From Babesia bigemina (Eukaryota): 64,000 nt of DNA. This document shows, piece by piece, positions 28,323-56,202 of the stretch. The position numbers and the translations under genes were made by a program. Location of the stretch: positions 124,001 to 188,000 of the forward strand of contig NC_027217.1 of the NCBI RefSeq assembly GCF_000981445.1. Reading direction: 5' to 3'. Positions within the stretch are counted from its first letter, which is position 1; each line of letters begins with the position of its first letter. The notes beneath the pieces are model-generated. The model worked only from the letters and a program-made list of their open reading frames with translations, made no database searches and was not told the origin of the DNA.

Positions 28323-28811
28323 TTAAACAGTGCTACGCAAACCGCTCAAGTTGCGGGCAAAAAAATCGCGGACCTTGTGAAATGGCCGAATGCGGCAGAT
28401 GGTCATGACGCAAACGGCGGTAACGATGAGGATGACGAATACTATCAAGGGGGCGATCAGACCGGTGGAATATACGGCGCCGGGGGAAGACATAGCAGCG
28501 GTGGAGGAGAGTGGACGTTGATTTTTACAACAATTACAACTGCAAATGTCCTTCCTTTTACATACGACCTGACAGGTCTCAGGCGCACATTGATACTTGT
28601 TATTGCGCCATTGAGTTGTGATGACACAAGTAAGGCACTTGATAGTTGTGCATCCTTCACAACAGGAGGGACAACACATACAACCAAATAAGTTACAATC
28701 ATTATCACATCTACACTTATCACTCATCTTCTCCTTTTCCTTCGTCAACCTGCACCAAGCATAAACTGCTCACCTCAGCGGCGAACACTTATGCCACTGC
28801 GCCTTCTCCAT
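28323..28811 (-). CDS. Small cysteine-rich single-pass membrane protein, copy 1
   Basis: CxCCPxCCxxC..CxCxCC domain, TM LIAPLIVFVILIVTAVCVMTI, tail RPFHKVRDFFAR. Start is either ATG 28727, or ATG 28811 via a 24-nt intron (28750-28773) that splices in frame. Confidence 0.7.
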
Positions 28812-28867
28812 CGGCCTTACGCTAGCAACCAGGTGATCGCCATCGAAAGCACCGCCGGTTAAATCGC

Positions 28868-29415
28868 TCTTATAAAGCTATCACAACTGGATAACTACAG
28901 AGGTAACGCATGTGGACGGTATCCTAGCACTGGCATGCATATCAACCCGTAACTGCTGCGCAGTCAACTTAGTGCATCACGGACCAACCGACTTGTCAAC
29001 GCCTCTTATCAGTATCACCACATTTATGTCTTAATGAGTGATTATATGAGTTACATTGCCTGCTTGATATGTTTTTCATTTTTTTACTGTTGCCATCAAT
29101 GTCACATAATCACGTTGGAGAGTTACGGCAACATCCATTGCCAAGCTACGCACATGATAGCTAACGCGGCAAACAGTCACTCAGCTGACAATTCATAATT
29201 CCACCTAGCACGGGTATCACAGCTGCCTATGTTGGTGGCCAACAGCACAGCTCCACCTAGCACTGACAGGGTGGGACTATGCGAAGACATATCAAGGGTT
29301 CTGCAAAACCCAAATCACAACACTGTATCATCCATTAAGTGGGCTACATGAACCAGGTTATGCCTGGCGGCAGTCACGCTTTTTTCAAAGCATGGTGCCG
29401 TAGATGATGCAGTAA
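28868..29415. repeat. Conserved non-coding spacer, inverted homolog of 44500-45050
   Basis: Shared collinear blocks, e.g. agtgggcta(c/a)atgaac(c/t)aggttatgc..gcggcagtcacgctttt..catggtgccgtagatg(a/c)tgc(a/g)gtaa; agctgccta(t/c)gttggt; tgttgccatca(a/g)tgtcac; gctatcacaactg. Confidence 0.85.
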
Positions 29416-29481
29416 TACAACTAGCCACTAGTGCAACACAAAATATCACAATGGAAAATGACTTCATTAATGAGGTGATGA

Positions 29482-32400
29482 TTATTGAATAAAGATTCGA
29501 CCAATGGGATCTTCGTCGAAGTAGTCGATGTCGTAGAGCGAGGGCATTTTCGTGCCGTCCGTGAGTAACGCCTTGACATCGATGACATGAGACCCTTTGG
29601 AGCGCGTTAAGTGAGATCGTATGCGCAAGACGTCCAGGCGGTATAGCATCGTGTTGGCCAAGATGAGGAGTGCCAGAGACCAGAGTGCTACGAGGGTGAA
29701 GATGAATGGCTCCCGGATGCCGTAGAGGAAATTGTCCATGGCATTCATCAGTGATGCGATAGGCCTACCGTTCACAATTTCTTTAAGCTTAGTTATAACA
29801 TCAGAGCACTTGAGCGACACCTGCGATCCCACCTCCGGCGGCGTGAACCCGTGTAAGTAGAGGAGGGGCAGGGCAGTGGAACACAGGTGGAGGGATGAAC
29901 ACTTGATACTAACGTGCTTCTTGAGATCATAGTGCAGCTTTTGAAGTGACTCCCACAGCCTGTCCGGCAGGTACACCGCCCAGCTGAGGTAGGTGTGGGC
30001 GAAGCTCTGGGAGTACAGGGCGTAGGCCCGGTAGGTGATGGGCGAGCAACGTGGATGACAAGTGGCAGAGTCACTACCGCAGCCAACCAGAGTGGACAGG
30101 GTACGGGGATGCTCGTTGTCGTGGTTGGAGTTGGACTTGAGAGACTCGGAGCCCCGGATGCCACTGACAGCTTGGAGGTCCGAGTTCTTGAGATGGTCCC
30201 AGTCAGGGCAGTGGTCATGTGGAGTGGAAAGTGAATTGCCGAGTGAAGACAAGGACTCTGAAGCATACCCGTACAGCTCATTCCCGAAATTATGGAAGAA
30301 GGACACAAGCTCCCCGGTGGTGCGCGGCGTCCGCCTGGTGATGCAGTTGAGGTAGGAGCACAGTGTCAGCAAGGGGTCCTCACCGCCGCAGCTGGGAGTG
30401 AGGATGGAGGAAAGGGTGATGCCATTTTCCGATTCCTCAGGTAAATCATCCTTCCTGAATCCCATCCTGACGCGGCTCTTGAGGCAGGGGTTGCACGGGT
30501 CGAAGGGGTGAGTCTCGAAGTCGGAGTCCCAGTTGTCGGTCAGGAACGCCTGGAGGGGGGACTTGGAAGCAGTGATGTCACTGCCGTACTTACAATCTTG
30601 CCACCCACCATGGATTTTTCCTCGTGAACACTGCGCCTTCAGGAATTGCAACTGGTAGTGGCAGGCGTAGGCGTAGTCACGCAGCTGGCAGAGGAGACAC
30701 GCTGGGTCGGGGGAATAATGAAGCTTATCATATTCTAATTTGAAGTCGATGTTAGATAGAGCATCGCCGGATTGCATACGCATTATTCCGTTCAGTACGT
30801 GTGCTGAGTAGAGACAGGCCTCGGTAAGGGTGTCGGCGATATGAGATGCGGACAAGGATAGATCGCCGTTGACCTGGAGGGCATACTTAGGGTAGAATGT
30901 ATCGCCGTTTAATGCCATTAACAGGCCTTCCATATGTCTCTCCATCTTGGCAATAATTCCATACGTATTGAAACCGACCAGCCAGAAGAGCATGGCCTTG
31001 ACGTCGGTGGGAGGCGGTAGATGGTCGGAGTCTGGTGGAGGGGGAAAGGTTGATGAGGTGGCAGAATCATGAGCGTAATTCCAAAGATTATTGCACATGT
31101 TAGGGTTAGGATCCACAGTAAATCCGTAATTTTTAAAAACACCTATATTGTTGGAATAATCGGTATCTGACTCAGGATTCATGTTGGGAATTGTAATATA
31201 CGGCAAGGCAGGTTGGATAGGTTGAGTTACGGACAATGAATGGTGACGTGTCGTATTAGAGTTCGTCGCTGTTTCATATAAATTAAATTCTTTGGCTTGA
31301 ATTTCTATCGGAATTGGTGGCATAGGCGAATTGCGATTAAAATCCTTTATAGGATGACCTGTGATATCAGGAATTGGTGACGCAGGAATAGTTTTTGATT
31401 TCAGTTTTGGCGCATTCATCGTAGGTTTGGGTGGGGTTATTGGTAGGCCAGTGGGTGCACTAATAGCAGCGAGGGATTGGAGAGGCATACGACCCGGTAG
31501 GCCTTGGGAGTTATCGGCTGGGGTTCCACTGAATAAACTACTAACATTCCGCATATGTGTTATATATGTACTTTCTGAATTTTTCAAATCTTCAGCCGAA
31601 TTAACCATATCTCGTTTATGCCAATTTATAAACGCTTGTGTATCAACATGCCATTTTAATGCTTCGCGATCTATTTTGTCGTTATATTCCTTCTCAAAGT
31701 GTTCCTCATCAGACGGAGGATCTAACACGGATTCACCATCTGGCATAAAATCACGCAAGTCCGCAATAGCACCTCCTTTTAAAGAATTTGCAAATGGATC
31801 CTGAATCGGAGCAAAGGAGGGGTAGATAGCGTTAGGATTATGGTGTTTTGGAGCATAATACTTTTGGTATTGCTCCTGCAATCGCTTATCTTCGGCCTCA
31901 GCTTGCTTATGCCAGTCCGCTTCTTTATTTTTTTGTGGGTCTCCAAATTTCAATTTTTTGTCTAGCTTACCGGCGGCTTCCCTTTTTTTTTCATGCTGCA
32001 TTATAGAATAATCATCGAACCGCCTTAGTACTTTTCCTTCTTCTTTTTGTTGTTTCCAATCATCATCTGCTTTTTTTATTTTTTCAGCATCTTGCATCCA
32101 TTGGTGTTGAACTTCACGCAACCCCTGATTATGTTTTTCTCGCAATTTTAAATCCACTAGTTTTATACCCGATTCTCCATATCTGCGATTTTCCTTTTGT
32201 ATACGTTTTGAAGACGTGTCCGGGACGGCTTCACCGTTGACTTCCAGAGGCGGAACACCCAGTATAGCCACACCAAAGTGCCTGCGTCTACCATCTCCTG
32301 GAACGTAGTAGGGCTTCCCATGGCGATGATGGCTACTTGTATGCTGAGGATAATGTCTGGGAGCAGTACTACTGGACTGATTTATAGAGGTGGAGCTATT

Positions 32401-34623
32401 GTGGGATCGTAAATTTCGTTTTTGTAAATGTTGCTGTATTGTCTGTTGAAGTCGTTGATCGAAAGTTTTTTTCTGGGCGCTCTCCCAAATGTCATCCGGT
32501 TTACTAAAATTAAAGGCAGTCGGGGATAGCCTTTGAAATTCTGGATAACAATATTCTTTGCCGTTTTCAACTTTCGGTATTTGACCATTAGGGCACAATT
32601 GGGAAGGAGTGGGAACTTTAGATGTAGCAGATCTAATCCCACCCGTCCCCCCTCCTGCATCATTGCCACCACCTCCTCCAACTTCACCTCTGCCGTCACC
32701 TGAATCAGGAGCCGCAGCGGCGGATCCCATACTACTGTCATCTGCACCATTCTGAGACACTTGACCACTTCCTTGTACAGACCCGGATGAAACCGCCTGC
32801 CCACCCGGGCCCTGGGCACCGGGTGGTGCAGCGCCTGTGGCTGGAATGCTTGGAGGCGGAAGGGAAACAGGCTGTGGACTTGTCGTAGCATTGTCCCGTA
32901 AAGCCTGGGCCGGATCTGCAGGAAGACCGGGAGGAGAGGGTGGCGCTGCAGTCACAGTCGGCGGTTGAGATGAAATAGTCTGCTTCTGAACAGTATCATC
33001 AGGTGGAGAAGATGTTGTATACCCGGCACTAGAAGAGCCTTGCGGGCCTTTCTCACTATTAGTCTCTGGCGCTCCCGCACTACCGGTAAGAGGAGATGAA
33101 GAAGATGTAGTCACCGATGAAGTTATAGGCTGCCGTTCGCTTTGACCGTTGTTTTGATTTGGAGATCTCACCGTTTTAGAGTCAGGGGATAAATGTGAAC
33201 TAGGCTGTTGAGCACCTTGGGATTGATGATTTGGAAGTCGAGAATCCCCTCCACCTCCCTTGGCTCTAGTACCACGCAGAACTATATGATGCGCCTGATT
33301 GTGCTGCATTCCGGAACCTTGAGCGACGGATGGTCTGGACGGAGGCGCAGGCTTTGCAGCCGCCGGTTTCGCGGCTGCTGCAGGCCGTGATGGTTTGGTT
33401 GATTTACATTCCTCGCCGTCCAAAAGTGTTTTCAACTTGTCCAAACCGTCATTGTCTCGCTTAAGCATTGAAATCGTATCATTCCACTTAGGTGGCAATG
33501 TATTCCATGCGTAGCCCATCGTTCCATAGCGTGTGTTGCCGAATATGAAGCCGTAAGGGAATATGTTTCCGGTCGCAAATTTCCGAAGGTGGTCTTTTTT
33601 GACATTGCCATCCTTAGGGTAGCCTGTACTAATTTTGTTGACATTTTTCCTCACCTCAGGCAAATGATTTCTGAACCATTTTGCAGTTTCGCTGGCAAAT
33701 GTCTCAGTGTTAACCTTATCAACACTCGGTGCCTGGCCGGTGTACGAAAAGGCGTTGTCGTTGAAAAAACTTCCCAAATGTTTATCCAGTGTGAAGCAAT
33801 GCTCTTTCAATTTACCCAAATTAATACATTTTTTAGGATGCTGATTTCCTAAATCCCTATCCAAAACTTCTTTTAATTTGGCACCATTATTTTTCTTCCC
33901 TGCCTCACCAACAATCTGGCAAAACGTGCTCACCAAGCGAAGCACATTCGCGGTGTTAACCTGGTGAGTGCCGGCACCAGAGAACACTGAAATCAAGAAC
34001 GTGTCGCGAAAATCGTTTTGCACACCTTTCTCCTTTTTCAAAATCTTTTCAAGGTCACCAACCATATTCTTACCCTGGGGATAGGCATAGCTAACACTAT
34101 ACTCATAACCATATGTTAGCTCCTCGGGACCGAATCCTCCTGTAATAACATCGTAAGTTGAGGACACGTTCCATCTTAGATAGTCCTGCAATGCGCCACC
34201 ATGGTCTGCGTAGCCATTACCCCACCAACTCCATTCCTTCTTCCACCCAGGATACAAATGCTCCCAATGCGACCCTCCTACTGCGGCATATTTATAATCT
34301 ACATTGTACAATAAGAAATACAATGCTGCAAAAATTTTTGGAAGGCACTCCAAGAGAGCGTTGACGATTTCTTTAGGGCTCTTCTTGTAATCGCCGGTAG
34401 CTGGCTGCTTACATAGTTTGCGATAAAACGTAGACACGTTGTCGAGGAATGTGATGAAGTAACCAGGCAATTGTCCCCCTACAGTTGTGGTACCATAATA
34501 TTGGCTCTTACGCGTAGCCAAATCTGCGGCCACATGTGGATGCATCTCATTCGCATTTTTCAACCACTCCAGGAACTGAAGACAGTCCTTAAGAGTGCTG
34601 AGCGAAATTCCATGAGATGTCAT
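29482..34623 (-). CDS. Large ves-like variant surface antigen, copy B, apparently full length
   Basis: Same N-terminus (TLKDCLQFLEWL) and C-terminal domain as copy A. Complete TM (FIFTLVALWSLALLILANTML) followed by cytoplasmic tail YRLDVLRIRSHL. Confidence 0.85.
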   Translation of the reverse strand: MTSHGISLSTLKDCLQFLEWLKNANEMHPHVAADLATRKSQYYGTTTVGGQLPGYFITFLDNVSTFYRKLCKQPATGDYKKSPKEIVNALLECLPKIFAALYFLLYNVDYKYAAVGGSHWEHLYPGWKKEWSWWGNGYADHGGALQDYLRWNVSSTYDVITGGFGPEELTYGYEYSVSYAYPQGKNMVGDLEKILKKEKGVQNDFRDTFLISVFSGAGTHQVNTANVLRLVSTFCQIVGEAGKKNNGAKLKEVLDRDLGNQHPKKCINLGKLKEHCFTLDKHLGSFFNDNAFSYTGQAPSVDKVNTETFASETAKWFRNHLPEVRKNVNKISTGYPKDGNVKKDHLRKFATGNIFPYGFIFGNTRYGTMGYAWNTLPPKWNDTISMLKRDNDGLDKLKTLLDGEECKSTKPSRPAAAAKPAAAKPAPPSRPSVAQGSGMQHNQAHHIVLRGTRAKGGGGDSRLPNHQSQGAQQPSSHLSPDSKTVRSPNQNNGQSERQPITSSVTTSSSSPLTGSAGAPETNSEKGPQGSSSAGYTTSSPPDDTVQKQTISSQPPTVTAAPPSPPGLPADPAQALRDNATTSPQPVSLPPPSIPATGAAPPGAQGPGGQAVSSGSVQGSGQVSQNGADDSSMGSAAAAPDSGDGRGEVGGGGGNDAGGGTGGIRSATSKVPTPSQLCPNGQIPKVENGKEYCYPEFQRLSPTAFNFSKPDDIWESAQKKTFDQRLQQTIQQHLQKRNLRSHNSSTSINQSSSTAPRHYPQHTSSHHRHGKPYYVPGDGRRRHFGVAILGVPPLEVNGEAVPDTSSKRIQKENRRYGESGIKLVDLKLREKHNQGLREVQHQWMQDAEKIKKADDDWKQQKEEGKVLRRFDDYSIMQHEKKREAAGKLDKKLKFGDPQKNKEADWHKQAEAEDKRLQEQYQKYYAPKHHNPNAIYPSFAPIQDPFANSLKGGAIADLRDFMPDGESVLDPPSDEEHFEKEYNDKIDREALKWHVDTQAFINWHKRDMVNSAEDLKNSESTYITHMRNVSSLFSGTPADNSQGLPGRMPLQSLAAISAPTGLPITPPKPTMNAPKLKSKTIPASPIPDITGHPIKDFNRNSPMPPIPIEIQAKEFNLYETATNSNTTRHHSLSVTQPIQPALPYITIPNMNPESDTDYSNNIGVFKNYGFTVDPNPNMCNNLWNYAHDSATSSTFPPPPDSDHLPPPTDVKAMLFWLVGFNTYGIIAKMERHMEGLLMALNGDTFYPKYALQVNGDLSLSASHIADTLTEACLYSAHVLNGIMRMQSGDALSNIDFKLEYDKLHYSPDPACLLCQLRDYAYACHYQLQFLKAQCSRGKIHGGWQDCKYGSDITASKSPLQAFLTDNWDSDFETHPFDPCNPCLKSRVRMGFRKDDLPEESENGITLSSILTPSCGGEDPLLTLCSYLNCITRRTPRTTGELVSFFHNFGNELYGYASESLSSLGNSLSTPHDHCPDWDHLKNSDLQAVSGIRGSESLKSNSNHDNEHPRTLSTLVGCGSDSATCHPRCSPITYRAYALYSQSFAHTYLSWAVYLPDRLWESLQKLHYDLKKHVSIKCSSLHLCSTALPLLYLHGFTPPEVGSQVSLKCSDVITKLKEIVNGRPIASLMNAMDNFLYGIREPFIFTLVALWSLALLILANTMLYRLDVLRIRSHLTRSKGSHVIDVKALLTDGTKMPSLYDIDYFDEDPIGRIFIQ
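29873..30696. repeat. 824-bp tract identical to 22132-22955
   Basis: Direct comparison with copy A. Confidence 0.9.
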
Positions 34624-34683
34624 TCTGTCCCCAACGACTTGTACACTAATACGCTACTTACAAATAGCCGCGGCCACTTCCCC

Positions 34684-34730
34684 AACTATGTTAATTGGGA
34701 AGCACTAGGGGGATCAAAACTCTAAGGTGA
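34684..34730 (-). promoter_or_regulatory. Conserved 47-bp element 61-107 nt upstream of the copy B ATG
   Basis: aactatgttaattgggaagcactagggggatcaaaactctaaggtga versus aactatgtggactgggaaccattagaatgatcatacctctaaggtga. Confidence 0.5.
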
Positions 34731-35745
34731 TGCCCTATACGCAACACCCTACCCAAGCCGCTAACTGCCCTAGTTGAGAACACTACAGTACACCAAGCTG
34801 AGTGACATGTGTCACGACGCGAAAACCAAGCGCGATAAGTTAGTACCCACAGCCAATCACTTGTCCACTCCACCTTCCTATACAACATAAAAAACCGAAA
34901 CAATACCACCATCTCACTCACCTTAAGCGGGATGATGGTGATATGTCCAGGCATCCTGCAGACACGAAGCTCGAATGGCTTATGACTAGGTGGGCTGCAA
35001 CAGGGGTTTAACGGCAAGGCAGCTCCCCCGACCCCGCATTGCGGCGTCGCCAAGCTGTCACCGCTCAACATACGAGAACCAATCAAAAAGCTGGCATCAA
35101 ACCGACCGCCCGCAACACGACAGCTGCGCGTCTTGCACCACGGATATACCGGTGATATAAATGCATGTGAAACATATTTTTTGCCTCAACATGCGTATCA
35201 ACAGACATCTCAATCGTGATGTTTCAACTTCACCCAGCATATACCACGCCACCTTACCGCTGTATACTAGCCAAGCTGTTGTTGCCGTCCCAGCCGACTA
35301 GACAGTCTACTGTGGGGGTGAAGTGGGGTTATGTTGGTGATGTCTACAGTGTTGCCCGCTGACGCCGCTTTACCACGCTGCCTAGCTATCGTCACGCCGG
35401 ACTAGTTGTCTTTGGCGTTCATGACCTATCTAAGAATCAAATAAATACCACGCCATACCATACAGCTAGCAGACAGTTGAACGACAACCTCAACTGGTGA
35501 TACCTGTTGACCGGTCACCTATATGATAACCCACCAACCTTCGCATACTACCGAGGTCATCAGATAGAACTGCCACACATAAACAACAACCCACAACACA
35601 ACATCCCAAACAACAATCCTTTTAATGGGTTGAATACATGAGACACTGGGTTAGGAGGTAGGTTAGGCGGTGGACGGTTGGTTATTCGGACTGATGTGTT
35701 ATTGATAGGCTGCACAATCATTAGACAATAAATACCGTAAATCTG

Positions 35746-38700
35746 AAACGATAGACCTATTGACTAGAGAACCTTCGAGAGGCACTAGACTGGCTCATCC
35801 AGGTGCGGCACTGTGCCAAGACTTCGACACTGTCCGACAATCTCTGCAAGCCGTTTCACAATGTTGCTCATGACGTTGAAAGATATCTGCCGCCTCGAAC
35901 CGCATCAGAAGAGCCGTCAGCCTGCGATGTTATTTCACGATTGTCAACGTTACAAGGCTCTGCTCCGGAAGACTCTGCGAATCCTAATAAGAACATTATA
36001 CATAATCTCTGTGCCTCCGCTGCCAGCCTATTAGGTTATCGATCTCCTGGGACCTACGACGGTTCCGGGATTGTGTACGGCAACGCCTTGCGTCTGTGCG
36101 ACGCCATCCTGGCATTCTTGTATGCCGTGCTCAGCGACGTCCATGCTAACCAGCCGTACGTTGCTGGTAAATATCTATTGTATGATGTTATTGTGGAGAT
36201 AAAATCCCAACTATGGCGTGGCCGCAAGGGGTTTCGCCAAGTCATCCCCAAGGTGGCCAATGACCTTGAGAGGTACAACGCCGCTGTCAAGGCTTCGAAC
36301 GAGAAGGTCAAGAAGCCGATTGAGACCGTGTTGCATTACGTGAAACCAGATGGTGAGTTGCATAAAGGTATACAAGCTTTGCAGATAACGGAAACATCGA
36401 CGTCCACTCAAGATGAGAGAACTGTGGAGTCCGCTGTATCCCTGGTGGAGGGGTGCAAAGAGGTTGCCGGGGTGTTTTCTAAAGGCTTGACGGCGGCAAC
36501 CAATGCCATAAATGACCTGAACCCCAAGCTGAAGAGAAAGCTTTAGAACGCCAGGAGAAGCTTTTTCAACCACGTTGACTGGCTGAGCAAGTGGTCCAAG
36601 AAGGGGCAGAAAAAGCTGTTGGACAAGATGGTACAAAAAAAATCAAGAGTCGGCTTAAACAGCTTGCAAATGCAGTCAAGGACAAAATTAAACAAGAAGT
36701 GCATACGGTTGTCGAGTTGTTGAAGGAACGTGTTAGGGAGATTAAAATGAAGTTGGAAGCAATTACTGCCAGTGTGGAGGAATATGTCAAGGAGCTGGGA
36801 ACGTGGATGGATGACGCAAAAACGTATATTCAAGATGTGAAAAAGTATGTTGATGACATCATGGAGCAACTTGATGGAAAGCATAGACAGGCTATTGACC
36901 AGGCCGCCGCGGACATTGACAGTGAGCTTGGCAAGAAAGTTGGGGAGTTGAATGAGTGGATTGAGAAAGCGGAAGCCGCCGTCAGTGTGGCTAAGCAGAA
37001 GGCGGATGATGTATTTAAGAGGTTGGATAAGGACAGCGGTACGAAGATTCGTCAAGGGTTTGAGAAGATTAGTGAAGCTAATAAAAAGATTTCGGAAGTT
37101 AATACCCAGCTGGGAATAGTGCACAAGGATTTGGGGGATTGGAAAGGTGTGGCGAAGAGTGTGCTCAGGAACTCTGTTCAGAAGGTTGGAGAGGTGAGTG
37201 ATAAGTTGGATCCAGGAAAACGAGGTGCAGAGCATCCTATTGGTGAGAACCTTAATCAAATCGATACGTCGAACGAAGATATTAAGAAGGCAAATGAACA
37301 ACTCAAAACTCAACTTGAAAAGCTGAGTAAGTGGATCACGGAAGCGGATGGTTTACGCCAAAAAGCACAAGAAAAAGCCGAGGATGTCTACAGGAGCTTG
37401 GCAGTTCATCAGCAGCTGAGCGATAAAATCAAAGAGATTCAGTAGCAAATCAGACGATTAAGGATGTTGACAGTGGGCTGGGTGATGTTGACAGCAAATT
37501 GGGAGAATGGAGTACGGAGGCTAGGAAAGTGATTCACGATGTGGTCAAAAAGGCTGAGGAGGTATATGAGAAGTTGAGTAAAGATGAAGATCAGGTGATT
37601 GGTCGAGGCATCAAGCAGATGAAAGAAGGCAGAGATAACGTCGAGAGAGTTGCTAAGGGGTTAACATTTGTTAGCGACGATTTGGAAAAATGGAGAGAGG
37701 CGGCGCACACTGTGCTTAGCACTGCGGTTGATAATGCTGTAGAGGTGCATAAAGCGTTGGATCCTGCAAGAAATAGCTCGACGCTTGGCACTGAAATTCA
37801 TAAAATTGATACAGCTAGACAGGGCATAGTTGATGCAAACAAGGAGCTTGAAAGCCAAGTGAAAAGTCTCAACAAGTGGATTCAGGATGCCGAAGATATC
37901 CGCCAAAAGGCTGAGACTAAGGCCAGGGAAGCGTATGATAAGTTGAGTGTTCATGAGGAGCTTAGCAAGAATGTGAAGAAAATTATGGAAGCAAAGGAAA
38001 AAATTGTAGGAGTCAACAAGAGTGTTAACACGCATATTGGGAGTCTGAAGCAGTGGAATGAGAAAGCTAAGGAAGTGCTCGACGGGGCAGTCACTAAGGC
38101 GCAGGAAGTTCATAATAGGTTGAAAGATAATGTTGGCCTAAAAGTTGAAGAAATAAAAAAGAGTAACGAAGCAATTAAAGAAGCTAATGCAAAGCTCGGC
38201 GACGAAGTTGCCAATCTAGGTAACTGGAACACCGCCGCCAGGAAAGTCATTGAGATGGCAGACAAGAAGTGTGATGAGATACTCAAGAGGGTTGATAAAA
38301 ATCATAATCAGCCGAAAGATGTTGAAATTTATAAGCAAGCTAAACATCTACAGGATCACGGCAAAAAGCTTCTAAAGGCTGCCAAAGATGCTAAGCAGAA
38401 AGTTGAATCCAAGGTCAAGGAGGCTTTGGACGCCGTGAAGGATATGGACGCAGATCTCAAGAAGGATTTGAAGGTGGTGAAGGATAAGATTAAGGAAGGG
38501 ATTAAAGATGTGATGAGTGAGTTTAAAGTTGGTGATTTGGGGAAAGAGGTGGAAAAGGATTTGAAGCAGTTGAGGGAGAGGATTGTTAAGCTAAGTGAAA
38601 ACGGTAAGGCCGATGGTCTTTTTAGAGGGCAGTTGAAAGCTCTTGATCAGGAAACTCAGAGTGTTAAGCAGAGGATTAACAAAATTAAGAGTGAGACGGA

Positions 38701-41586
38701 TAAGCAGCTTGAGGATCAATTTAGGACGAAGATCAAGGAGCCGCTTGACGTTAAAGTCAAAGCAGTCGAAGAAGCGATTGCGAAGGTTTACGAGAGATTT
38801 AATTCACAAGACGGTAGTGTATCATCGGAGAATAAAAAGAAACTTCAAAAGATTTTCGAGCATATTAGAGGACAGGTTGCAGATATTAAGGGGATGAAAG
38901 GTGGCAACACTGGTCTGGATGGCATTGTCGCGAACGTAAAGGGTCTGTATAACGCGTTTGTTCAGGGCAACGGCAAAGGGGTTGACGCAAGAGTAGATGG
39001 GTGGCTTGGAAGTATTTTGGGAATCAATGAGAATCAACGAGTGACGCATACTGATGGGATGAAGGCTGTGACATCGTGGATTAAAGAGTATAATGGCAAA
39101 GCTAGGAGGCTTGAAGACGCTTTGAAAATTGTTAAGGATCAAATTAAGGGTGCTCTTAGCAGCCAAATTAAAGCAGGTCAGAGGGTGATTACACAACAAG
39201 ATGTAGAAGATAACATTGTAAAAAATCTTACGAAGGTCAAAGAGGCTTGCCGAGCATTTGTAGAAGAGCTGGATAAGAAGCTGACAGACAAGCAAATTAC
39301 ACAATTTGCCAATCCGATAGTTAGCACAATTCAGAGTAGGTTGAGGCCAGGGCAGAGGCTACCGGCTGTTAATGACGAAAAACTCACCGCTGCCGTTAGA
39401 GCTGCCCTTATTGCACTTTGCAGTTGCGTCAAACAGGTAGCGGCGGAAGTAGATTATCTAGGCATAAGCCTGTTTGGCACAATTATAGACGAAACCAAGC
39501 AGGCTGTTGATGATCGTCACGGTAAGCTTGCACGAACAACTAACACGGGCACCCCTGGCAAAGCGAACCCCGACCCTGGCACAGCGCAAGCCGTGGACAA
39601 GGCGATAGAGGGGGTGAAGGAAATGGTTGACAACACGATTAAAGAGAAATTTGAGAACGAAGTTAAGAAGCCTGTTGAAGAGGCCGTCAATGGCCTTGAC
39701 ACTGCCGTTCAAGCTTACGACAAGAAAGCTAGGGAGCAAGTCAAGGATGCGGCCAAGGGGGCGATTGACAAGGCGGCTAATGTGATTAGTGACAGCACTG
39801 GGAAAATAGAATTGGGTGGGAACAATAAACTCATGAAAAATTTTAGTAATGCTCACAAGGAGATCACAACGAACCTCAAACCGAAACTTGAAAAATTACT
39901 CAATGACCACATTGGGAGGGATGACACGCGTGATGGTAAGAGAGAACAAATCAAACTGTCGAGAGATTTTAAAAGATATGATGATCATGTAAGCATTGGC
40001 TCTCTAACGGACTACGTGTATGGTCGACTTTCTCTAGCGATAGAGAAGGTTAGGGATGAGGGGCTGACTGATATTAATAAGCATGTTGGTAAGAGAGCTG
40101 GCGATAGGACTGAAGAAATAGACATCACTGGTTCGTGCAGCAAAGTAGAAAAAGAGCTAAAAGATATCGTCGATCTACTTACTCACAATGACAAAATAAT
40201 ACTCGACTATGGCGACATAACAAACAGAGGAGTCAAAACGTTGTTGACTGAGCTCGATGATGGACTTACCAAACCAGTCCCTGGTGTTTTTGACAAAGGC
40301 CTTGAAACAATCACAAAGGTTATTGGAGACCTGCAAAGAGACACGTTTGATACTAAGTCCAAGACCATTGAGGAAGCCGCCGCAGAAATTAGGAAGGAGG
40401 TTGAAGTACTTAAGAAGAAGTTGCTGAGTGATGGTGGTAATGATGACGTTATTAACGCATTAAAGGGGTTGAAGGATACTGGTATGTCGAGTGGAACATG
40501 GAACGGCAAAGGTGGCAGTCCAATAGATGGTCTCAAGAAAATCGAGAGTGAGCTCGAAAGGTATAATGAGGTGTTAGGGAAGCAACCTGGTATAATCGGC
40601 GATGCCGTCTACGGAATTAGGGATGCACTTGCAAGAATCAAAATTAAGTTGAATGAGCCCCTCACTTATGATGACGTCGTGCACCATTTGACAAGATTAG
40701 AAAAAAAGATTGGTATAGGTGATGAGAATAATGAATACAGTCTTCAGAAAATAATCAAAGCGATCAACAAGCTAAGAGCGGGGCAATTTAGTGTAAACCC
40801 GAAAGCCATCCAGCGAGCCGCGGGTGAATTTATTAAAGAACTTAGACTGATTCAGTATGTTTTGAAAGGTGAGCGAAACAATGACGTAATTATAACGTTG
40901 AGTGATTTGAAGAATGTCGGCTTAAGCGTAAATGATTGGCACAAGCATGAAAACGCAAAAGGTCTCCATAAAATCGAAAATGAACTCAAACTTCAACAAA
41001 GTCAGTTGAACGGGCAACCGAAACTAATAGGCTCAGGCGTGGAACAAATTGCCAATGTGCTGGAAGAGGTGCGAACTGCGTTACAGAGTATAGACGGAGG
41101 TACGAAAGGTGACGTGATAAACAGATTGGGAGCTCTACTAAGAGATGCATTCAATGGCTCAGAGTGGCAGAATGGTAGAGGTAAAAAAATCACTAGTCTC
41201 GGCAAAATTAAGCAGGACCTTCACCAGCAGAAGGAGAGTTTGGCTCAGCAATATGAAACAATTGACAAAGCAACCGAAAGCGTAATGCACGAAACACAGG
41301 ATATGCTTAGAAAGGCAAGCCAGAAGTTAAGTAGTGATCTCATTAGTGATACCATCGTGAAGAATTTACAGTTGTTAGAAAAGATGATTGTCCGTGGTCA
41401 AAATGGCGATGACAGTCTTCAAGGAATGTATGAGAAGATTAGTGGACTGCAAAATGAGGAAATCCATAAAAGTTCCGAAGCCATCTTTGCAGCGAAGCAA
41501 CAGGTTGGCAAGGAACTTAAAAGGCTTAAAGATAAATTACAAATCGATGTTAGCAATAAATTGGAAGACTTGGTGATAAATGGGTT
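35746..41586 (+). pseudogene. Decayed ves-like long coiled-coil antigen ('extracellular matrix-binding ebh-like' type in Babesia annotations), truncated by a retrotransposon
   Basis: N-terminus KR*TY*LENLREALDWLIQV resembles the ves start ..KLTDCPENLRE.IDWLIQV; YDGSGIVY and LCDAILAFL motifs. Stops at 35752, 35761 and 36544; frameshifts at the A8 run 36635-36642 and at ~37441-37445; no ATG. Antigen-like sequence ends at ~41586. Confidence 0.8.
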
Positions 41587-41678
41587 CGGCCTCCTTATTA
41601 AATTAAGTTATCTCATCTTATAGTGTGCTATGTGGCTACGTGCCTTGGGCCGGTTTTCGTGTTTGCGGGGCTAACGCC

Positions 41679-42102
41679 TCACGCTGAAACCGGTTGCGGG
41701 ATCCACGCCGGTCCGTTGCCGGACGTCACTGGTGCCATCCATGCGGGCATCCATCCAGTTTGGGCTTGAGGGTCTTCTACGGAATCGTAGTCTTCTTTCG
41801 GCTTCATATCCCTCATCACTATTTTATGTGTTTCTTGGATCACTACCCTTTGTATGTGGGCTTCCATGCGATCCGATATGCCCAGGTCCCGTCTGTACTT
41901 GCTGTGCTCCTTTGTCACTATTCCCTCCCACGTCATAACGTAGGGGATAACCCTGATCTTGGTTTGCTGGTTAAACTGCCGCGCCTTGAGGTCCTCGATA
42001 AGGTCTTCATACTTCTGCTTCTTGAACTTCTCCGTATCCACTAGGTTGTCTTGATTGGTGATTCCTATCTCAAAAATGATGATGGTGTTATCACCAATAA
42101 CA
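41679..42102 (-). pseudogene. C-terminal half of the restriction-like endonuclease, out of frame with the RT
   Basis: Frame reads VIGDNTIIIFEIGITNQDNLVDTEKFKKQKYEDL... to TGA 41679. The CCHC knuckle, RHD/RHN and PD motifs are absent. Confidence 0.7.
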
Positions 42103-44448
42103 TATTTCCTTACATGATACCTCCAGGTCGATCTTGTCGAAATGCGTGATGTCCATGGGAATCACGCCGATGTAGTAGTTGATGACGCTGAGGGCGTACT
42201 GGTTGATGGCCATCGAGAGGTTTTTCCCCGACAGCTTTGACGCAGCCAGTAGCTCCGTTCTCCTGCATATCTCCTGTAGTATTATGTCGAACATTCCGTC
42301 GCTTGTAAGTGAGTTTGAAGTCTCTGTGACTCCCAAGTACTTGTACGTCTCCGGGCCTTCCATCTGCTTGGCGATGCTGGCGCACGCCTCCGTGTTGGTT
42401 GCCGACTTGTCGCGGTTGATCCTGAGTCCTATGTCGTTGAAGAACTTCTCCACTTCTCGGCCCATTCCTCTCATCGTACTTTCCTCGTGGGCGAAGAACT
42501 TGAGGTCGTCAATATAGAGAAAGTGGTTAGTGGCGAAGATCCTGCCGCCAGGCACGCTTAGCTCCACCTTGGGGAAGATGCGAGTCAGGTGCCTGCTCAG
42601 CGGGTCCAAGCACAGCACGAAGAGAAGGGGCGATAGGCTGTCGCCTTGGAGAATGCCCCTCTCTACTTTCTTGTGCATGATTGTGTTCTTGTTCCACCGT
42701 ATCTCTATATTCCACCTCTTGGTCGTCTGCTTGATGAAGTTTGATAACCACCCTGGTAGGTTAAGGTTGTCGATAACCCTTGCCAGGTACGCGTGGTCGA
42801 TTGAGTCGTACGCCTTCATGACGTCGACCCACGTTGCAAGTAACTTCCCCTTGTGCTTCTCGTTGAGCGCGATGTTCGCTAACGCGTGCTCCTTTGCACC
42901 CTGTACGTTGCTCCTCGTGCCCATCTGGTTCTCGGACCGTAGTCCCCTGCCATCGACTTCTCGCTTAAGCGTCTCCGTGGCACAACGGGTAGTTAGCTTG
43001 TATAGGTTGGACATGCAAGTGATCGGCCTGTACTGTGCGGCGGACTTTGGTTTCTTGTTCTTCGGTAGTAGGTACGTGATCCCACAGTAGAACCAGTCGT
43101 CCTGCACTTTGCCTTGCTGGCATGCCTCCTCTACTAGCCTATAAATGACTCTGTGAAGGGACGTGAGCCATTTAATGTAGTAGTTGTAGATCCCATCCGC
43201 ACCGGGCGACTTCCAATCTCGCAATTTCTTGACGATCGTGACGAATTCCTCGTATGTGGGAAAGCCTGCCATGTTCTCTGCCGGTGGTCTTTCGACCAGG
43301 TATCCTTCACCGTTGTGCGGTGCGTTTGGCTTCACCCACATTTGCGCCCAGTACTCTATCATCATCCCCTCGTTTATCGCCGACTCGTCCGCGTCCTGCT
43401 GATTCTCCAGTGTCCTGTAGAAGTGTCCCGTGTAAAGCTCGAACATGCGGTTATGGTTGTACAACTCCTGCTTGAACTTGGCGTTCTTGAGTTTGTCCTG
43501 CTCCTTTTGGAGCTCCTCTTGGGTCCTGCTGATCACGTATGACAGTTCCTGCGGCTTGTCCGCGATCATGTTGTACTTGTCCATTTGGCGATAAACGCGT
43601 TTCCTATCCTCCTTCTCCAGGGGGACCTTCTGCTTGTATTTCAGAAGTAATGCTCCTATCTCCTCCAGCTCCTTGATCCTCCTCTCAGCTGCCTCCTTCT
43701 TTCCCGAGGACGACGATGGTTTCGCGCTGTACTTGTCGTAGCAGTCCTGTGCCGTTTGATACAAGATGGCTAGCATCCCCATGTCAGTGACTGGGTTGTG
43801 CTTCACGTAGTTGTGGACCACTAGATCCAGCGACCTAATCGCCGTGAAGTCGAGGGAGTCCATGGTGTGTCTTTTGTTCTTTACTGTCCTAATAACACCA
43901 GGCTCCCTCAACCTCTGTGCCATGATCCGGTCGAAATCCTCCTGCAGGGCGTTGTATGAGTCGACGTCGTGCAGCGATGCTATTTCTCCAACATCCGTCG
44001 GTTGGCTCCGCGCTGCTTTGGCGACTACCTGTCTTGCCATCTGCTCCACCTCCTTGTGGGTCTTGTGGAATTCGAAATGCTCGTTGGCATATTCCGCGAG
44101 GACCTTCCATCCTCCTCGTGGCATCCTCTGATACTTCGTCACTACTGCCTTGTAGACGTCCGGTACCCAATGACACCATGGTCCATCGATCTGACGCATG
44201 ACACAGTGCAGGAACTGTAGCTTGGCATTTAGCCTAGCGTAATGCGGCGGCATTCGTGGCGTGTTCCCGGCCCGTTCAGCCTGCGGGGCGTGCCCTTCGG
44301 GTGCCCTCGGCAACGCAGCCGTCTCAGTGAGCGCCACCTCACTGGCGGTTCCCGGTGCTATACTGTTGTTTGATTCTCTCACAGGCCCGACTTGCTCAGG
44401 TTCCTCTTCGTCCACATCCATAAAGTCATCAGACGATATGGAATACAC
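42091..44448 (-). CDS. Retrotransposon reverse transcriptase ORF (no ATG at the 5' edge; C-terminally broken)
   Basis: 785-aa stop-free frame with the RT core and YIDD catalytic motif. Confidence 0.85.
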   Translation of the reverse strand: MYSISSDDFMDVDEEEPEQVGPVRESNNSIAPGTASEVALTETAALPRAPEGHAPQAERAGNTPRMPPHYARLNAKLQFLHCVMRQIDGPWCHWVPDVYKAVVTKYQRMPRGGWKVLAEYANEHFEFHKTHKEVEQMARQVVAKAARSQPTDVGEIASLHDVDSYNALQEDFDRIMAQRLREPGVIRTVKNKRHTMDSLDFTAIRSLDLVVHNYVKHNPVTDMGMLAILYQTAQDCYDKYSAKPSSSSGKKEAAERRIKELEEIGALLLKYKQKVPLEKEDRKRVYRQMDKYNMIADKPQELSYVISRTQEELQKEQDKLKNAKFKQELYNHNRMFELYTGHFYRTLENQQDADESAINEGMMIEYWAQMWVKPNAPHNGEGYLVERPPAENMAGFPTYEEFVTIVKKLRDWKSPGADGIYNYYIKWLTSLHRVIYRLVEEACQQGKVQDDWFYCGITYLLPKNKKPKSAAQYRPITCMSNLYKLTTRCATETLKREVDGRGLRSENQMGTRSNVQGAKEHALANIALNEKHKGKLLATWVDVMKAYDSIDHAYLARVIDNLNLPGWLSNFIKQTTKRWNIEIRWNKNTIMHKKVERGILQGDSLSPLLFVLCLDPLSRHLTRIFPKVELSVPGGRIFATNHFLYIDDLKFFAHEESTMRGMGREVEKFFNDIGLRINRDKSATNTEACASIAKQMEGPETYKYLGVTETSNSLTSDGMFDIILQEICRRTELLAASKLSGKNLSMAINQYALSVINYYIGVIPMDITHFDKIDLEVSCKEICYW

Positions 44449-44499
44449 GGTCGGAGAGCGGCTGCCACCGTTTCCGACAGCCTCCCCTGCCGGTGGCTG

Positions 44500-45050
44500 T
44501 TACCGCAGCATCTACGGCACCATGGTGTGAGAAAAGCGTGACTGCCGCTATGCATAACCTAGTTCATTTAGCCCACTGAAAAGATGACTGAATACGGTAA
44601 GGTGAGTTGTGAGTTATCTGTGAGAGATGTCTACGGCATCCGACCTTGCTAGTGCAATGGGGCGCTGGGTGGAGAGCGACCAACGTAGGCAGCTGTTATA
44701 GTCGTTCTAAGTGAAATTATGCATCGTATGTTCGATGAATGACTGGTATGGTAATATAATGTGCATAGCTAGGCAATGAATGCCGCTGCGTCTCCCACGT
44801 GATGGCCAGTGGACTGCGTGGTTACGTGACACTGATGGCAACAGGGTAAATGATGAGCATCTTGACTAAGCAATGTAGTTTACATAGATACTCTTTTATG
44901 ACACAAGTGTGATTACATTCTGAAGCAGCGTTGACAACGTTGGTCTGTGATGGATAGTGTCAGCTGCGCTACAGGTGCCCGTTGACCTGCATGCCACGGC
45001 CAAGATGGTATCAACATGCTTTATCTTGGTTGTACTTCAGTTGTGATAGC
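44500..45050. repeat. Conserved ves-like 3'-flank spacer, inverted homolog of 28868-29415
   Basis: See 28868-29415. Confidence 0.85.
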
Positions 45051-45155
45051 TGCATAGTTTTGATGTGGCTGGCTATTCTCGGGACGACGGGCACCTGGCT
45101 GACGTTGAAGCTGATGGGAGCTCAGTTGCCTTGCATAGGCGCGTGTTGATGAGTG

Positions 45156-45282
45156 GTTGGTGAGTGCTGCTTAGGTGATTGATGTTTGCAGGTTGAGGGG
45201 ACTGGGAGCGGCAGTGGTAGTGTTGCAGTTGGTGAGTGCTGCTTAGGTGATTGATATGTTTGCAGGTTGAGGGGACTGGGAG
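45156..45282 (+). repeat. Two ~53-55-bp direct repeats, each containing an intron-like GTGAGT...TTTGCAG
   Basis: gttggtgagtgctgcttaggtgattgat(at)gtttgcaggttgaggggactgggag at ~45156 and ~45228. Confidence 0.85.
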
Positions 45283-45294
45283 GAACAGGGGAAG

Positions 45295-45852
45295 ATGGTG
45301 ACGATATGGAACGGTCAAGAGTGTACCAAGTGTGGTAACAAATGTCGAAGGGCTCAAGAGTGTAATTGCTGTCCTTGGTGTTGTTATGAGTGCAATAAGG
45401 CAGGTGTGGAAAATTGCGATGTATGTTGGTATCATATCTGGAAGCGCAAAGGAGGCTCGATGCGTTACGATTGCAGGAATTTCGGTTGTGAAACAAAATG
45501 TGCAGGCAAGGAGCACACATGTCAATGTACATGTTGTAGAGCGAAATGTCAAGTACCTGGCGCCTGCAGTCCCCCCGCTCCGCGGCCTCCCGTACCTTCC
45601 CCCGGTGCTGAGCGTCAGACAAGTGAACGGAGGTTGACCGATTCCTCCACTGAAGAAAGTTCCGCTCGCAGTTCCGATGCAGAAACCTCCACACCTCCCC
45701 CCCCTGACCCCCAAGCCATCGCCGCCGTCATCGTTGCCATCATCGTCGCCATCGTCCTGCTCGACCTGTGCATCTTCCGCTTCCCGGTGGGCCGCAACAT
45801 CCGCGATTTCCTCGTCCGGAAGATACCGTTCTGCATCGCGTTCTACAGCTAA
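45295..45852 (+). CDS. Small cysteine-rich single-pass membrane protein, copy 2
   Basis: CNCCPWCCYEC..CQCTCC domain, Pro/Ser stalk, TM AIAAVIVAIIVAIVLLDLCIF, tail RFPVGRNIRDFLVR. Paralog of 28323-28811. Confidence 0.75.
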   Translation: MVTIWNGQECTKCGNKCRRAQECNCCPWCCYECNKAGVENCDVCWYHIWKRKGGSMRYDCRNFGCETKCAGKEHTCQCTCCRAKCQVPGACSPPAPRPPVPSPGAERQTSERRLTDSSTEESSARSSDAETSTPPPPDPQAIAAVIVAIIVAIVLLDLCIFRFPVGRNIRDFLVRKIPFCIAFYS

Positions 45853-46805
45853 ACTGAACGATTTAGTAGCGCAATTACCTTATGGTATTATACATGAAGG
45901 TCAGAGTGCTTGTCAAATGACCTATTTTTACATGTTTCATAATCGTTGATCCGCCGACACAGCGAGACGTTTAAATACTATATTCTTATATAGCATTCAA
46001 TGCGCTTCGGCAATATTACCGGGATCTATCATGGTGACCTGTTGTACGTGTCAGTCGGACGCCAATACACGTTCTATATCTGCACTCATCTTATCCCCTC
46101 CAGGTCGTGAGACCCAATAGATGTCGATACCCTGCTCTCTGATATCATGAAAATTGTCTCTTTCTACTACGACGTGTACTACTTTGACGACTGACAAGTT
46201 GGGCAACTTGGAGCCCAACAGTTGTCACCGTATTCGTTACCTCTTGTTGGCTTGGGATGGATTTCAGTGTAGTAGTGATGAGTTGCGTTACTGTGTCATA
46301 TGCAGTGCCATGGTGTCATGCGGGTTCGCAATATGACGTGCAACTAGCAGACAATGCAGCGGAATTCAGACAATGTTTCCACACAGCTAACCTAACAACT
46401 GCCTCGTGACGTACTAAAAATGTTTAGTGGTAGACTAATTTGCTAGTTCCGTGTGGATTGTGTGATTTCGATGTCGGTATGCTGGAAAAAATTTACAATA
46501 CTTGCCGACCCGCCACTCGTCAGTCTCGCCTAAATTACGGAGGGTGACTGCAGCCATGAAAAAGTGTACCATTAACGCAATAGTTCGACCCAACCACAGA
46601 AGCAGTCTAATGTATGTATAATCACAATGACCACATCACAAACGGGTGATTATATGTAGACATTACAGATACATTATATTACGGGTGTAGCCGTGGGGTT
46701 ACAATATTAGTGAAAGTGGGCTAGGTGGTAAACGAGTACTGCGGCGGGGTTGACTGGTGCAAAGACGAAATCGTAATGTGCAATAACAAAGACACAGCGC
46801 CTGGA

Positions 46806-52331: not shown

Positions 52332-53108
52332 CGTGATAAATTGACCAAAACTCCAATTTCAACTTTCCATGCTGTGGAATACTTTTGTTGAATCCACAAT
52401 ATTTATTTAAGCCATTTTGAAACCTCCTCACACGTATTGACGTGCCGGGTCAACATCAGGTGTTAGCCTGTCCTAATGCATCGCATGTCTACAGGGCTTT
52501 CTGACGAAGCCTATACTCTCTTGATGCACTGGTGTACAGTCGTGCGGTAGTACAGCATCGAAATATGCTTGGAAATTCCCTGTAAAAATATTGAGGTTGC
52601 GATATCTTATCCTCCAGGGTTGACTGTTCCGCGTTTTGAGTAAGCGCGGCGGAACGGTCCACACGATCCCGTGATAGTACTCCTTCAGAGTGACTCCGAC
52701 GCGTAATACCGTGGTATTTAGAGCGTGACCCTGTCTGAATACGCTCGCGGTAGTTTGGCCGATTCTTCGTCACGCACACGACGCGACATAAACGGAGACT
52801 CGGTGGTCCACTTAGGGCTCGAACTACTGTTTTATTTTACGAGGCGCGTCACTAATCGGCGCTCTTACGAGCATCGCCTCCCAAGCTACGTGGCAACGTC
52901 GTCCCCGCATCGCGCCGCCAGAACGCAATAAGGCTCTGACACGCGTTCAAAGTGTACGTACAAGGAATTACAATTTCAATACATGTGTACAGTTCCTATG
53001 TGTTGCTACGAGCCCAACGGAACCGTACACCCTACGCGTCGCGGTAGTGTTCGTTCAGGTGCCAGTTCCACGGATTCGAGTGGAATGTGTTACAACGTCC
53101 CGACCGCG

Positions 53109-55607: not shown

Positions 55608-56202
55608 CCTGCGGTTCTCACCACGTACGAGGTCACCAGAGAAGCGCGATTTAATTAACTACAGGTGAGCAACGAGGGCCTTACATTTGCATATTCACGT
55701 AGAGTCCTTGACTATTAATCTCCGGCGCTGTCTATTGCCCCTTAGGCAACGACCCTTCCAATACGTCAGCCCGGGAGCGAATTAAATTGCCAAACTCGAC
55801 TGCCTTTCACATACATATGACTCGCCCATACGCCATCAGCCCCGGAGCCTCAGCGCTGCGCTGGCGTTTTTAAAACTATGTGTGTATACACATCGGCAAG
55901 CCTCAAACCACATTTACCGAACGCTTCCTATCCGAATACGATGGACTGAGCCACCTCGGCATTTAACTGAACATATACCGCGACGCTGATGGCTGTTCCA
56001 GCCGCTGTTCACACGATACTACACACCTTGGGCTGTCGCTACGACCCACCGGCGGCATGTTCAGCGACAGCCATAAACTGCCGATAGCAAGCACGATTGA
56101 GCGGCAGATTCGTGATTGGTATTAATGTTGATTTATACATCGACGATCGGTTAGTCAGCAGCGAGGCAGCGGTTCGTGGAATCCCGAAGGCGCGCTTGCA
56201 GG

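What the first reader, a model, noticed from the sequence alone, without database searches (positions are those of the whole stretch)
28323..45852. Repeated cassette: large ves-like gene, conserved ~550-bp spacer, small Cys-rich TM gene
Seen: the same three-part unit occurs twice in inverted orientation (34623 to 28323 on -, 35746 to 45852 on +), behind two different antigen subfamilies. The non-coding spacer is clearly alignable although the flanking proteins are highly diverged. Inference: the spacer is a selected terminator/promoter module and the small protein is a dedicated partner of the antigen. It is positionally analogous to SmORFs near B. bovis ves genes but structurally different.
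Basis: partly seen in the sequence, partly recalled or inferred. Interest (0 to 1): 0.7.

Follow-up and report, generated by a model that had tools for sequence, protein, structure and literature searches.

The report
Miniature variant antigen beside Babesia ves1
Beside its large surface-antigen (ves1) genes, this cattle blood parasite carries a family of about 60 small cysteine-rich membrane-protein genes with a shared non-coding leader, which likely encode a second, miniature set of variable surface antigens rather than one-to-one partners of the large ones.

Summary
The non-coding stretch aligns at 66-67% over about 600 nt (score 369, shuffles at most 34), far better than the small coding sequences do. 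The small proteins belong to one family (59 proteins found; 56 of the 58 others named Babesia bigemina): a fixed 18-cysteine scaffold with about 25% identity between the cysteines, a linker, one transmembrane helix and a near-invariant tail (97%), no signal peptide. Genome-wide, 22 of 27 mapped members sit next to a ves1 gene (background 4%). Best reading: a ves1-linked family of miniature variant membrane antigens, co-duplicated with ves1 3' flanks; the spacer is likely flank plus promoter and spliced leader. Expression, surface location and binding are untested. I found no description of the family in eight literature searches.

The parts
29482..34623 (-). ves1a-like antigen gene, intact, 1713 aa, C-terminal TM at about residue 1640 and short tail
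   Evidence: ORF and translation; hydropathy; degenerate VESA motif at residue 1205 (motif as given in PMC6630957); no Pfam family; class name inferred
28728..29481 (-). unit-1 non-coding stretch between ves stop and small-gene ATG; alignable core 29415-28826
   Evidence: a third copy in one contig of run X1 matches 28808-28889, 29202-29236 and 29339-29441
28750..28773 (-). predicted 24-nt GT-AG mini-intron in the small gene's leader
   Evidence: pattern scan; predicted, not shown by reads
28323..28727 (-). small Cys-rich single-TM gene, 134 aa, tail type II
   Evidence: aligns with P0039-P0043; TM 90-108; not found by its own word search
34624..35763 (.). head-to-head intergenic region between the ves1a-like and ves1b-like genes
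   Evidence: sequence; LAT-like divergent arrangement described in PMC4066756
35764..41597 (+). broken ves1b-like (coiled-coil) gene: no in-frame start, one stop, two frame changes, cut before any TM
   Evidence: class name inferred from the coiled-coil sequence and N-terminal likeness
41598..44499 (-). LINE-like non-LTR retroelement, 5'-truncated and internally deleted; RT frame 44499-42091, endonuclease-like piece 42161-41679
   Evidence: PF00078; best solved relatives R2 and L1 proteins; piece translated; a 4608-nt contig of run X4 covers 41598-44499, has 788 letters in place of 33 at 42089-42123 and runs on unlike beyond 44499
44500..45294 (+). unit-2 non-coding stretch; alignable core 44500-45101; duplicated exon-intron unit 45156-45282
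   Evidence: 25 of 58 annotated family proteins have N-terminal extensions matching 45063-45293, control 1
45160..45191 (+). predicted 32-nt GT-AG mini-intron
   Evidence: annotated gene models of relatives skip the equivalent letters
45232..45265 (+). predicted 34-nt GT-AG mini-intron
45295..45852 (+). small Cys-rich single-TM gene, 185 aa, tail type I
   Evidence: 35 relatives, all named Babesia bigemina; TM 142-160
21783..27530 (-). third ves-like gene, not followed by the spacer or a small gene (outside the finding; negative control)

Best explanation
The two small genes belong to a family of about 60 Babesia bigemina genes that sit beside ves1 antigen genes and likely encode miniature variant membrane antigens, and the shared non-coding stretch is likely the ves1 3' flank plus the small gene's own promoter and spliced leader. 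Shown: the family, its fixed cysteine scaffold, hypervariable spacing residues, single TM helix, near-invariant tail, lack of a signal peptide, and its linkage to ves1. Inferred: the protein is inserted like VESA1 (N-terminal Cys domain outside, basic tail inside), the invariant tail binds a common export or anchoring factor while the disulphide-held head varies under immune pressure and is shuffled between copies; flank and small gene are copied along with ves1 3' ends when ves1 genes duplicate or are replaced by gene conversion, so the gene travels with ves1 in general and not with one chosen antigen. In unit 2 a LINE-like element now stands where the antigen's 3' part and the first 66 nt of the flank would be, and the small gene survived intact.
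For: Family: 36 proteins of 111 candidates, 25 representatives among 1.84 billion, all 65-280 aa, 24 of 3087 candidates for the second tail type; 59 distinct, 34 type I, 21 type II, 3 with both tails, 1 unassigned. In 17 members with a whole Cys domain, identity outside the cysteines is 22-26%, while 37 type-I tails are 97% identical over 44 aa; Cys domains do not sort by tail type (4 changes, at least 2 forced by well-supported branches, 168-198 of 500 shuffles as low), as expected of mosaic antigens. Linkage: 22 of 27 adjacent to a ves1 gene in accession order, 24 within two, background 4.0%, best of 100000 draws 8; MFS control 3 of 38, 6-Cys control 1 of 24; type II 9 of 15 adjacent by estimated accession, 4 of the 8 firmly placed. 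Leader is family-wide: 25 of 58 annotated proteins match it; a third collinear spacer-plus-gene copy in one contig. VESA1 has the same plan, no signal peptide, C-terminal TM, short tail (PMC6630957 passages; PMC2034396 passages).
Against: No evidence here that any member is transcribed, translated, exported or surface-exposed. Accession order gives neither strand nor distance: of 7 members whose ves1b neighbour has a visible strand, 3 lie on its 3' side and 4 on its 5' side, and two ves1a-cluster genes have a member on each side, so 'at the 3' end' is not a strict rule. The ves lists are from one published clustering table, 76 of 81 ves1b-labelled rows seen. The tree rests on 71 columns with 10 of 14 inner branches open. 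A TM 24 residues from the C-terminus also fits a tail-anchored protein with a cytosolic metal-binding head. Spacer constraint and gene conversion cannot be told apart with three copies; block clustering is weak (p=0.018).
Confidence: 0.55

Rival explanations
1. [quoted passage not shown]
For: Tight linkage; head domain 24-27% Cys and 13-21% Lys+Arg; CKRD reported absent from B. bigemina VESA1 (PMC4066756; PMC6630957); a faint likeness between the small-protein and ves1a TM-tail junctions (E 0.22, not significant).
Against: No long protein among the 25 profile hits and no VESA1_N match in 16 members at E up to 1, so homology to CKRD is not detected; tail types do not sort by antigen class (13 vs 6 and 7 vs 2, p=1.0); only 17 of 80 ves1a-cluster, 10 of 62 ves1b and 1 of 13 ves1ba genes have a mapped type-I member adjacent; unit 2 keeps an intact small gene behind a destroyed antigen; gene 27530-21783 has none.
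Confidence: 0.2
2. The spacer has no regulatory role of its own: it is a homology arm or a passenger, kept alike by segmental duplication and gene conversion around ves1 loci, and the linkage is a by-product of where fast-evolving genes and LINEs are tolerated.
For: ves1 genes are routinely replaced at fixed loci and other multicopy genes gather at the same breakpoints (PMC4066756); RT-module genes show the same linkage, 7 of 9 adjacent; no Rfam family on the spacer; transitions equal transversions, 87 vs 86.
Against: The two small genes are of different tail types and only 28-30% identical yet the spacer still aligns end to end; identity stops sharply at the small gene and 3' flanks do not align; MFS and 6-Cys multicopy families are far less linked; predicted splice sites are kept next to the ATG in both units.
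Confidence: 0.2
3. The small proteins are tail-anchored, cytosol-facing metal-binding proteins (metallothionein- or zinc-cluster-like) inside the parasite or host cell, not antigens.
For: About 18-20 Cys in 70-84 aa with CxC, CC and CxxC groups, no signal peptide even after predicted splicing, TM close to the C-terminus.
Against: Non-Cys positions are only 22-26% identical among paralogues of one species and heads are shuffled between tail types, more like immune-driven variation; about 60 copies tied to antigen loci; no metal-binding family matched.
Confidence: 0.12
4. The spacer is a degenerate or multi-exon coding region that gives the small protein a signal peptide.
For: Unit 1 has a 50-codon ORF with a hydrophobic start at 29467-29315; few indels in the first 300 nt.
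Against: Stops in all six frames of the long blocks in at least one copy, no third-position excess; unit 2 has a stop in that frame and lacks its start; the loose ends of the third copy, read together, do not keep the frame (my reading of two printed ends); the third copy's contig is collinear with the DNA.
Confidence: 0.03

Closest known systems
SmORF family of Babesia bovis
   Same: Small multicopy, species-restricted genes found with ves1 clusters; similar family size (44 vs about 60) and about 50% paralogue identity (PMC2034396 passages).
   Different: SmORFs have a signal peptide (43 of 44) and no TM; these have a TM, no signal peptide and a Cys scaffold. Jackson et al. found no smORF homologue in B. 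bigemina.
BbigVes2 (short ves-like genes of B. bigemina)
   Same: Short genes at ves1-like positions in the same species (PMC4066756).
   Different: ves2 derive from the ves1b 5' end, have a signal peptide and no TM; this family has a TM and tail and shows no homology to ves1; two of three members looked up are absent from the clustering table that labels ves genes, the third is unlabelled.
VESA1 (ves1 products), including the B. bovis CKRD
   Same: No signal peptide, variable Cys/Lys-rich region, low-complexity linker, one C-terminal TM, short conserved tail (PMC6630957).
   Different: One tenth of the size; no detectable sequence homology; lacks the conserved VESA C-terminal domain.
Giardia VSPs and Plasmodium PIR proteins (recalled, not tested)
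   Same: Variable Cys-rich head with a near-invariant TM and cytoplasmic tail, typical of protist variant antigens.
   Different: No Pfam match to either (one member hit RIFIN at E 0.26, chance level); analogy of plan only.
LINE-like elements of Babesia
   Same: RT-bearing non-LTR element; reported for B. bigemina, B. ovata, B. divergens (PMC9141347 passages) and as RT gene clusters.
   Different: The passages I read do not report their linkage to ves1 (7 of 9 adjacent) or a copy cutting a ves gene.

Membership tests
SmORF | N-terminal signal peptide | tested here: not met
   No hydrophobic N-terminus by hydropathy, also after predicted splicing; no dedicated predictor run
SmORF | No transmembrane helix | tested here: not met
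   One strong TM helix in both proteins
SmORF | Association with ves1 clusters | tested here: met
   22 of 27 adjacent, background 4.0%
SmORF | Sequence homology to B. bovis smorf | tested here: not met
BbigVes2 | Homology to the ves1b 5' end, signal peptide, no TM | tested here: not met
   No self-BLAST match between small genes and ves genes; TM present
VESA1 | Conserved VESA C-terminal domain | tested here: not met
   Profile vs ves1a C-terminal 272 aa: probability 0.3%, E 0.22
VESA1 | CKRD homology | tested here: inconclusive
   Composition alike; no VESA1_N or long-protein hit; no B. bovis VESA1 sequence was in hand for a direct comparison
VESA1 | Exposure on the infected red cell and clonal variation | not testable with these tools
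   Needs localisation and clonal expression data
6-Cys (s48/45) proteins | s48/45 domain with signal peptide | tested here: not met
   No Pfam match; different Cys pattern
RLE-type non-LTR retrotransposon (element at 41598-44499) | Non-LTR RT domain | tested here: met
   PF00078 E 6e-31; R2 and L1 proteins best in PDB, E 5e-11 to 2e-7
RLE-type non-LTR retrotransposon (element at 41598-44499) | C-terminal restriction-like endonuclease | tested here: inconclusive
   Piece at 42161-41679 looks like one by recalled motif only; not scanned against a profile; the part before it is deleted in this copy
RLE-type non-LTR retrotransposon (element at 41598-44499) | Target-site duplication or fixed target | tested here: inconclusive
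   Flanks come from two non-adjacent places (ves coding DNA and spacer), sharing only a 3-letter word at the joints

The most novel reading that the evidence does not exclude
B. bigemina has split the variant-antigen design in three: full ves1, secreted 5'-derived ves2, and this third family, a membrane-anchored stand-alone cysteine/lysine head that replaces the CKRD lost from its VESA1, is switched on with the neighbouring ves1 through the shared spacer, and pairs with it on the red cell; the same spacer serves as the downstream homology arm for ves1 replacement and as a landing site for the LINE.
Probability: 0.15. Interest if true: 0.8.

Novelty: new variant of a known kind. Interest (0 to 1): 0.55.

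Why it matters
B. bigemina was thought to have no SmORF counterpart other than ves2, and the role of its VES proteins is described as unknown (PMC9806345). A family of about 60 small genes with the sequence signature of variant antigens, filed only as hypothetical proteins, would be a third layer of its surface repertoire. The near-invariant 44-residue tail is a ready handle: one primer pair or antibody would detect the whole type-I family and test expression, location and co-switching with ves1. The ves1-linked LINE offers a possible local cause of ves gene breakage and turnover.

Tried and rejected
No genome is held for the window, so the spacer could not be searched genome-wide; linkage was tested through accession order instead. 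Word search with the unit-1 protein found nothing (3 candidates); its subtype appeared only through the profile search. RNA structure: the two-sequence consensus fold has scattered short helices, 10 of 114 pairs with double changes, not testable with two sequences; Rfam gave 2 chance-level hits, neither on a spacer. Structure model of the small protein is poor (mean pLDDT 60.6, pTM 0.24); Foldseek found no match; Atlas hits were all under 0.9. Complex prediction of the ves1a C-terminal part with the unit-1 protein: no answer, score 0.00 twice, no evidence either way. Proteome table of PMC4066756: 4 member tags whose prefix rows were seen in full are absent, uninformative at 8% proteome coverage. 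Six tags not found in 7 supplements of PMC9531838; no member tag in Tables 2-3 of PMC9806345, whose supplements I could not open. My early idea that members lie 3' of the two dominant VESA1B genes was dropped: strand data put one on the 5' side. Earlier findings of this scan: none. PMC13465657 concerns host BovB/L1 matches and was not used.
Full report
Observation. A self-comparison of the window finds the spacer pair at 28876-29415 and 45051-44500, 67% over 572 columns, E 1e-44. Aligning the whole non-coding stretches (754 and 795 nt) gives 66% over 613 columns and a score of 369, against a maximum of 34 in 300 dinucleotide shuffles; the two small coding sequences score 46, only in the TM part. 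The long blocks hold stops in all six frames in at least one copy and mismatches show no third-position excess, so the stretch is non-coding. Conserved columns are only mildly clustered (p=0.018). Both small ORFs are there: 28727-28323 (134 aa) and 45295-45852 (185 aa).

Unit 1 is as described. In unit 2 the large gene has no in-frame ATG, a stop at 36544, two frame changes and no TM segment; some of these could be assembly errors, the next cannot easily be. A reverse-transcriptase element lies on the minus strand between it and the spacer (PF00078, E 6e-31; best solved relatives R2 and L1 proteins). A 4608-nt contig of run X4 covers 41598-44499, carries 788 letters in place of 33 at 42089-42123 and continues unlike the window past 44499, so the window's copy is 5'-truncated and internally deleted. 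Its ends join ves coding DNA on one side to the spacer, 66 nt in, on the other; whether the loss came with the insertion or by recombination between two copies is not known. A third ves-like gene, 27530-21783, shares 1007 nt at 96% with unit 1 and has no spacer or small gene behind it.

The family. The 185-aa protein has 35 relatives among 111 candidates, all named Babesia bigemina hypothetical proteins. A profile search of 1.84 billion representatives returned 25 proteins of 65-280 aa, including a second tail type that matches the unit-1 protein; a search with that type gave 24 of 3087 candidates, all B. bigemina. In all 59 proteins: 34 type I, 21 type II, 3 with both tails in tandem, 1 unassigned; 56 of the 58 others are named B. 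bigemina and 2 carry no name. No Pfam family fits. The 13 heads examined are 70-84 aa, 24-27% Cys in a fixed pattern. Among 17 whole heads identity outside the cysteines is 22-26%; 37 type-I tails are 97% identical over 44 aa; heads do not group by tail type, on a weakly resolved tree. There is one TM helix and no hydrophobic N-terminus, also after removing the predicted introns. Many annotated models have spurious-looking N-terminal extensions; 25 of 58 match the last 230 nt of the unit-2 leader (control 1) and skip the letters I predict as 32-34-nt GT-AG introns, so the leader is shared by both tail types. One 4544-nt contig of run X1 holds a third spacer-plus-gene copy, collinear with both units (83% over 44500-44837, 90% over 45727-45865); whether that run is RNA is only a guess.

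Linkage to ves1. No genome was held, so I used accession order. Accessions of 27 chromosomal type-I members (the 8 on unplaced contigs were left out) were set against ves1 lists from Table S2 of PMC5660447: 80 chromosomal rows of the ves1a cluster, 62 ves1b and 13 ves1ba rows (76 of 81 labelled rows seen, one dropped because it lies in the RT cluster). 22 of 27 are adjacent and 24 within two; background is 4.0%, the best of 100000 draws 8; controls MFS 3 of 38, 6-Cys 1 of the 24 rows seen. For type II, 15 of 16 tags could be placed by offset: 9 adjacent, 12 within two; of the 8 firmly placed, 4 and 6. Against a strict rule: only 17 of 80, 10 of 62 and 1 of 13 ves1 genes have a mapped type-I member adjacent; tail type does not follow antigen class (p=1.0); of 7 members with a strand-known ves1b neighbour 3 are on its 3' side and 4 on its 5' side, two of those with another ves1b on the far side; two ves1a-cluster genes have a member on each side. 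The strand of the small genes themselves is not given in these tables.

How it likely works. Shown: a multicopy, ves1-linked family with a constant scaffold, variable head and constant tail, behind a shared non-coding leader. Inferred: insertion with the head outside and the basic tail inside, as described for VESA1, which also lacks a signal peptide (PMC6630957; PMC2034396); a common trafficking partner for the tail; immune-driven variation and shuffling of heads; co-duplication of flank and small gene with ves1 3' ends, in keeping with the routine replacement of ves1 genes at fixed loci (PMC4066756). The spacer likely carries the ves1 3' UTR at one end and the small gene's promoter and spliced leader at the other; a 9-letter block kept in both copies contains an AP2-type core (motif recalled), a lead only. 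I give this 0.55. Rivals: dedicated partner supplying a CKRD in trans (0.2), passenger or homology arm (0.2, not exclusive), cytosolic metal-binding tail-anchored protein (0.12), hidden coding exons (0.03).

Comparison with what is known. It works like SmORF or ves2 in position but fails their defining features (signal peptide, no TM, homology). It resembles VESA1 in plan but shows no significant homology. Jackson et al. note in passing that other multicopy genes gather near ves loci and that species-specific genes often have a conserved C-terminus and a TM, which may include this family, but they do not describe it in the parts I read. LINE-like elements in B. bigemina are known (PMC9141347); 7 of 9 chromosomal RT-cluster genes lie next to a ves1 gene and 9 of 9 within two (left out: 14 rows on unplaced contigs, one Myb gene, and one row that may be this same locus), and one other locus shows the order ves1ba, RT, small gene.

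Literature seen. Searches: over open PubMed Central papers and bioRxiv only; none turned up a description of the family or spacer. PMC4066756: abstract, passages, Results parts 1-2 of 4, section 24, proteome table part 1 and searched rows (its figure file not read). PMC5660447: passages, section 28, Table S2 parts 2, 4, 8 and searched rows. PMC9806345: abstract, passages, section 14; supplements not seen and likely to bear on expression. PMC9531838: passages and one supplement search. PMC10463595, PMC6630957, PMC9141347, PMC13465657, PMC10471129, PMC9477259, PMC10434002, PMC2034396: passages only. Giardia VSP and Plasmodium PIR comparisons are recalled.

Verdict. Observation partly confirmed, interpretation partly supported. 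A real, apparently undescribed ves1-linked family with the marks of a miniature variant antigen; function untested. New variant of a known kind, interest 0.55.

Noticed in passing
window 41598-44499 (-): LINE-like element that cuts the ves1b-like gene; RT-cluster genes are ves1-linked genome-wide (7 of 9 adjacent), and two RT-like genes are among the most blood-stage-enriched in PMC9806345 Table 3.
   Followed up: partly
window 41607-41707: Contigs in runs X1-X3 match only this 100-nt 3' end of the element and then run on unlike it: possibly short LINE-derived repeats elsewhere.
   Followed up: no
window 26036-26147 (-): 30-nt tandem repeat in the 27530-21783 gene encoding a decapeptide that recalls mammalian ribosome-binding protein 1; many ves1a rows are annotated 'Ribosome-binding protein 1'. 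Likeness recalled, not tested; mimicry or host-derived DNA is open.
   Followed up: no
window 21949-22955 and 29690-30696: Two ves-like genes share 1007 nt at 96% in their 3' parts while their middles do not align, a likely recent gene conversion; the 21783 gene then ends in a different, weakly hydrophobic tail.
   Followed up: partly
window 45156-45282 (+): Duplicated exon-intron unit in the leader; annotated relatives show variable numbers of such units translated into false N-termini, so many public gene models of this family probably start too early.
   Followed up: partly
P0033, P0034, P0036: Three family members carry both tail types in tandem, giving two predicted TM helices: fusions or mis-spliced models.
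   Followed up: no
window 15817-19432 (-), 46806-52358 (-), 53109-55658 (-): Ordinary flanking genes: MCM-family helicase in two open frames, Myb-domain protein, protein kinase; the antigen block 19500-46500 is an insert of lower G+C among housekeeping genes.
   Followed up: no
window 19433-21782: 2.3-kb A+T-richer stretch without an ORF of 100 aa after the third ves-like gene.
   Followed up: no
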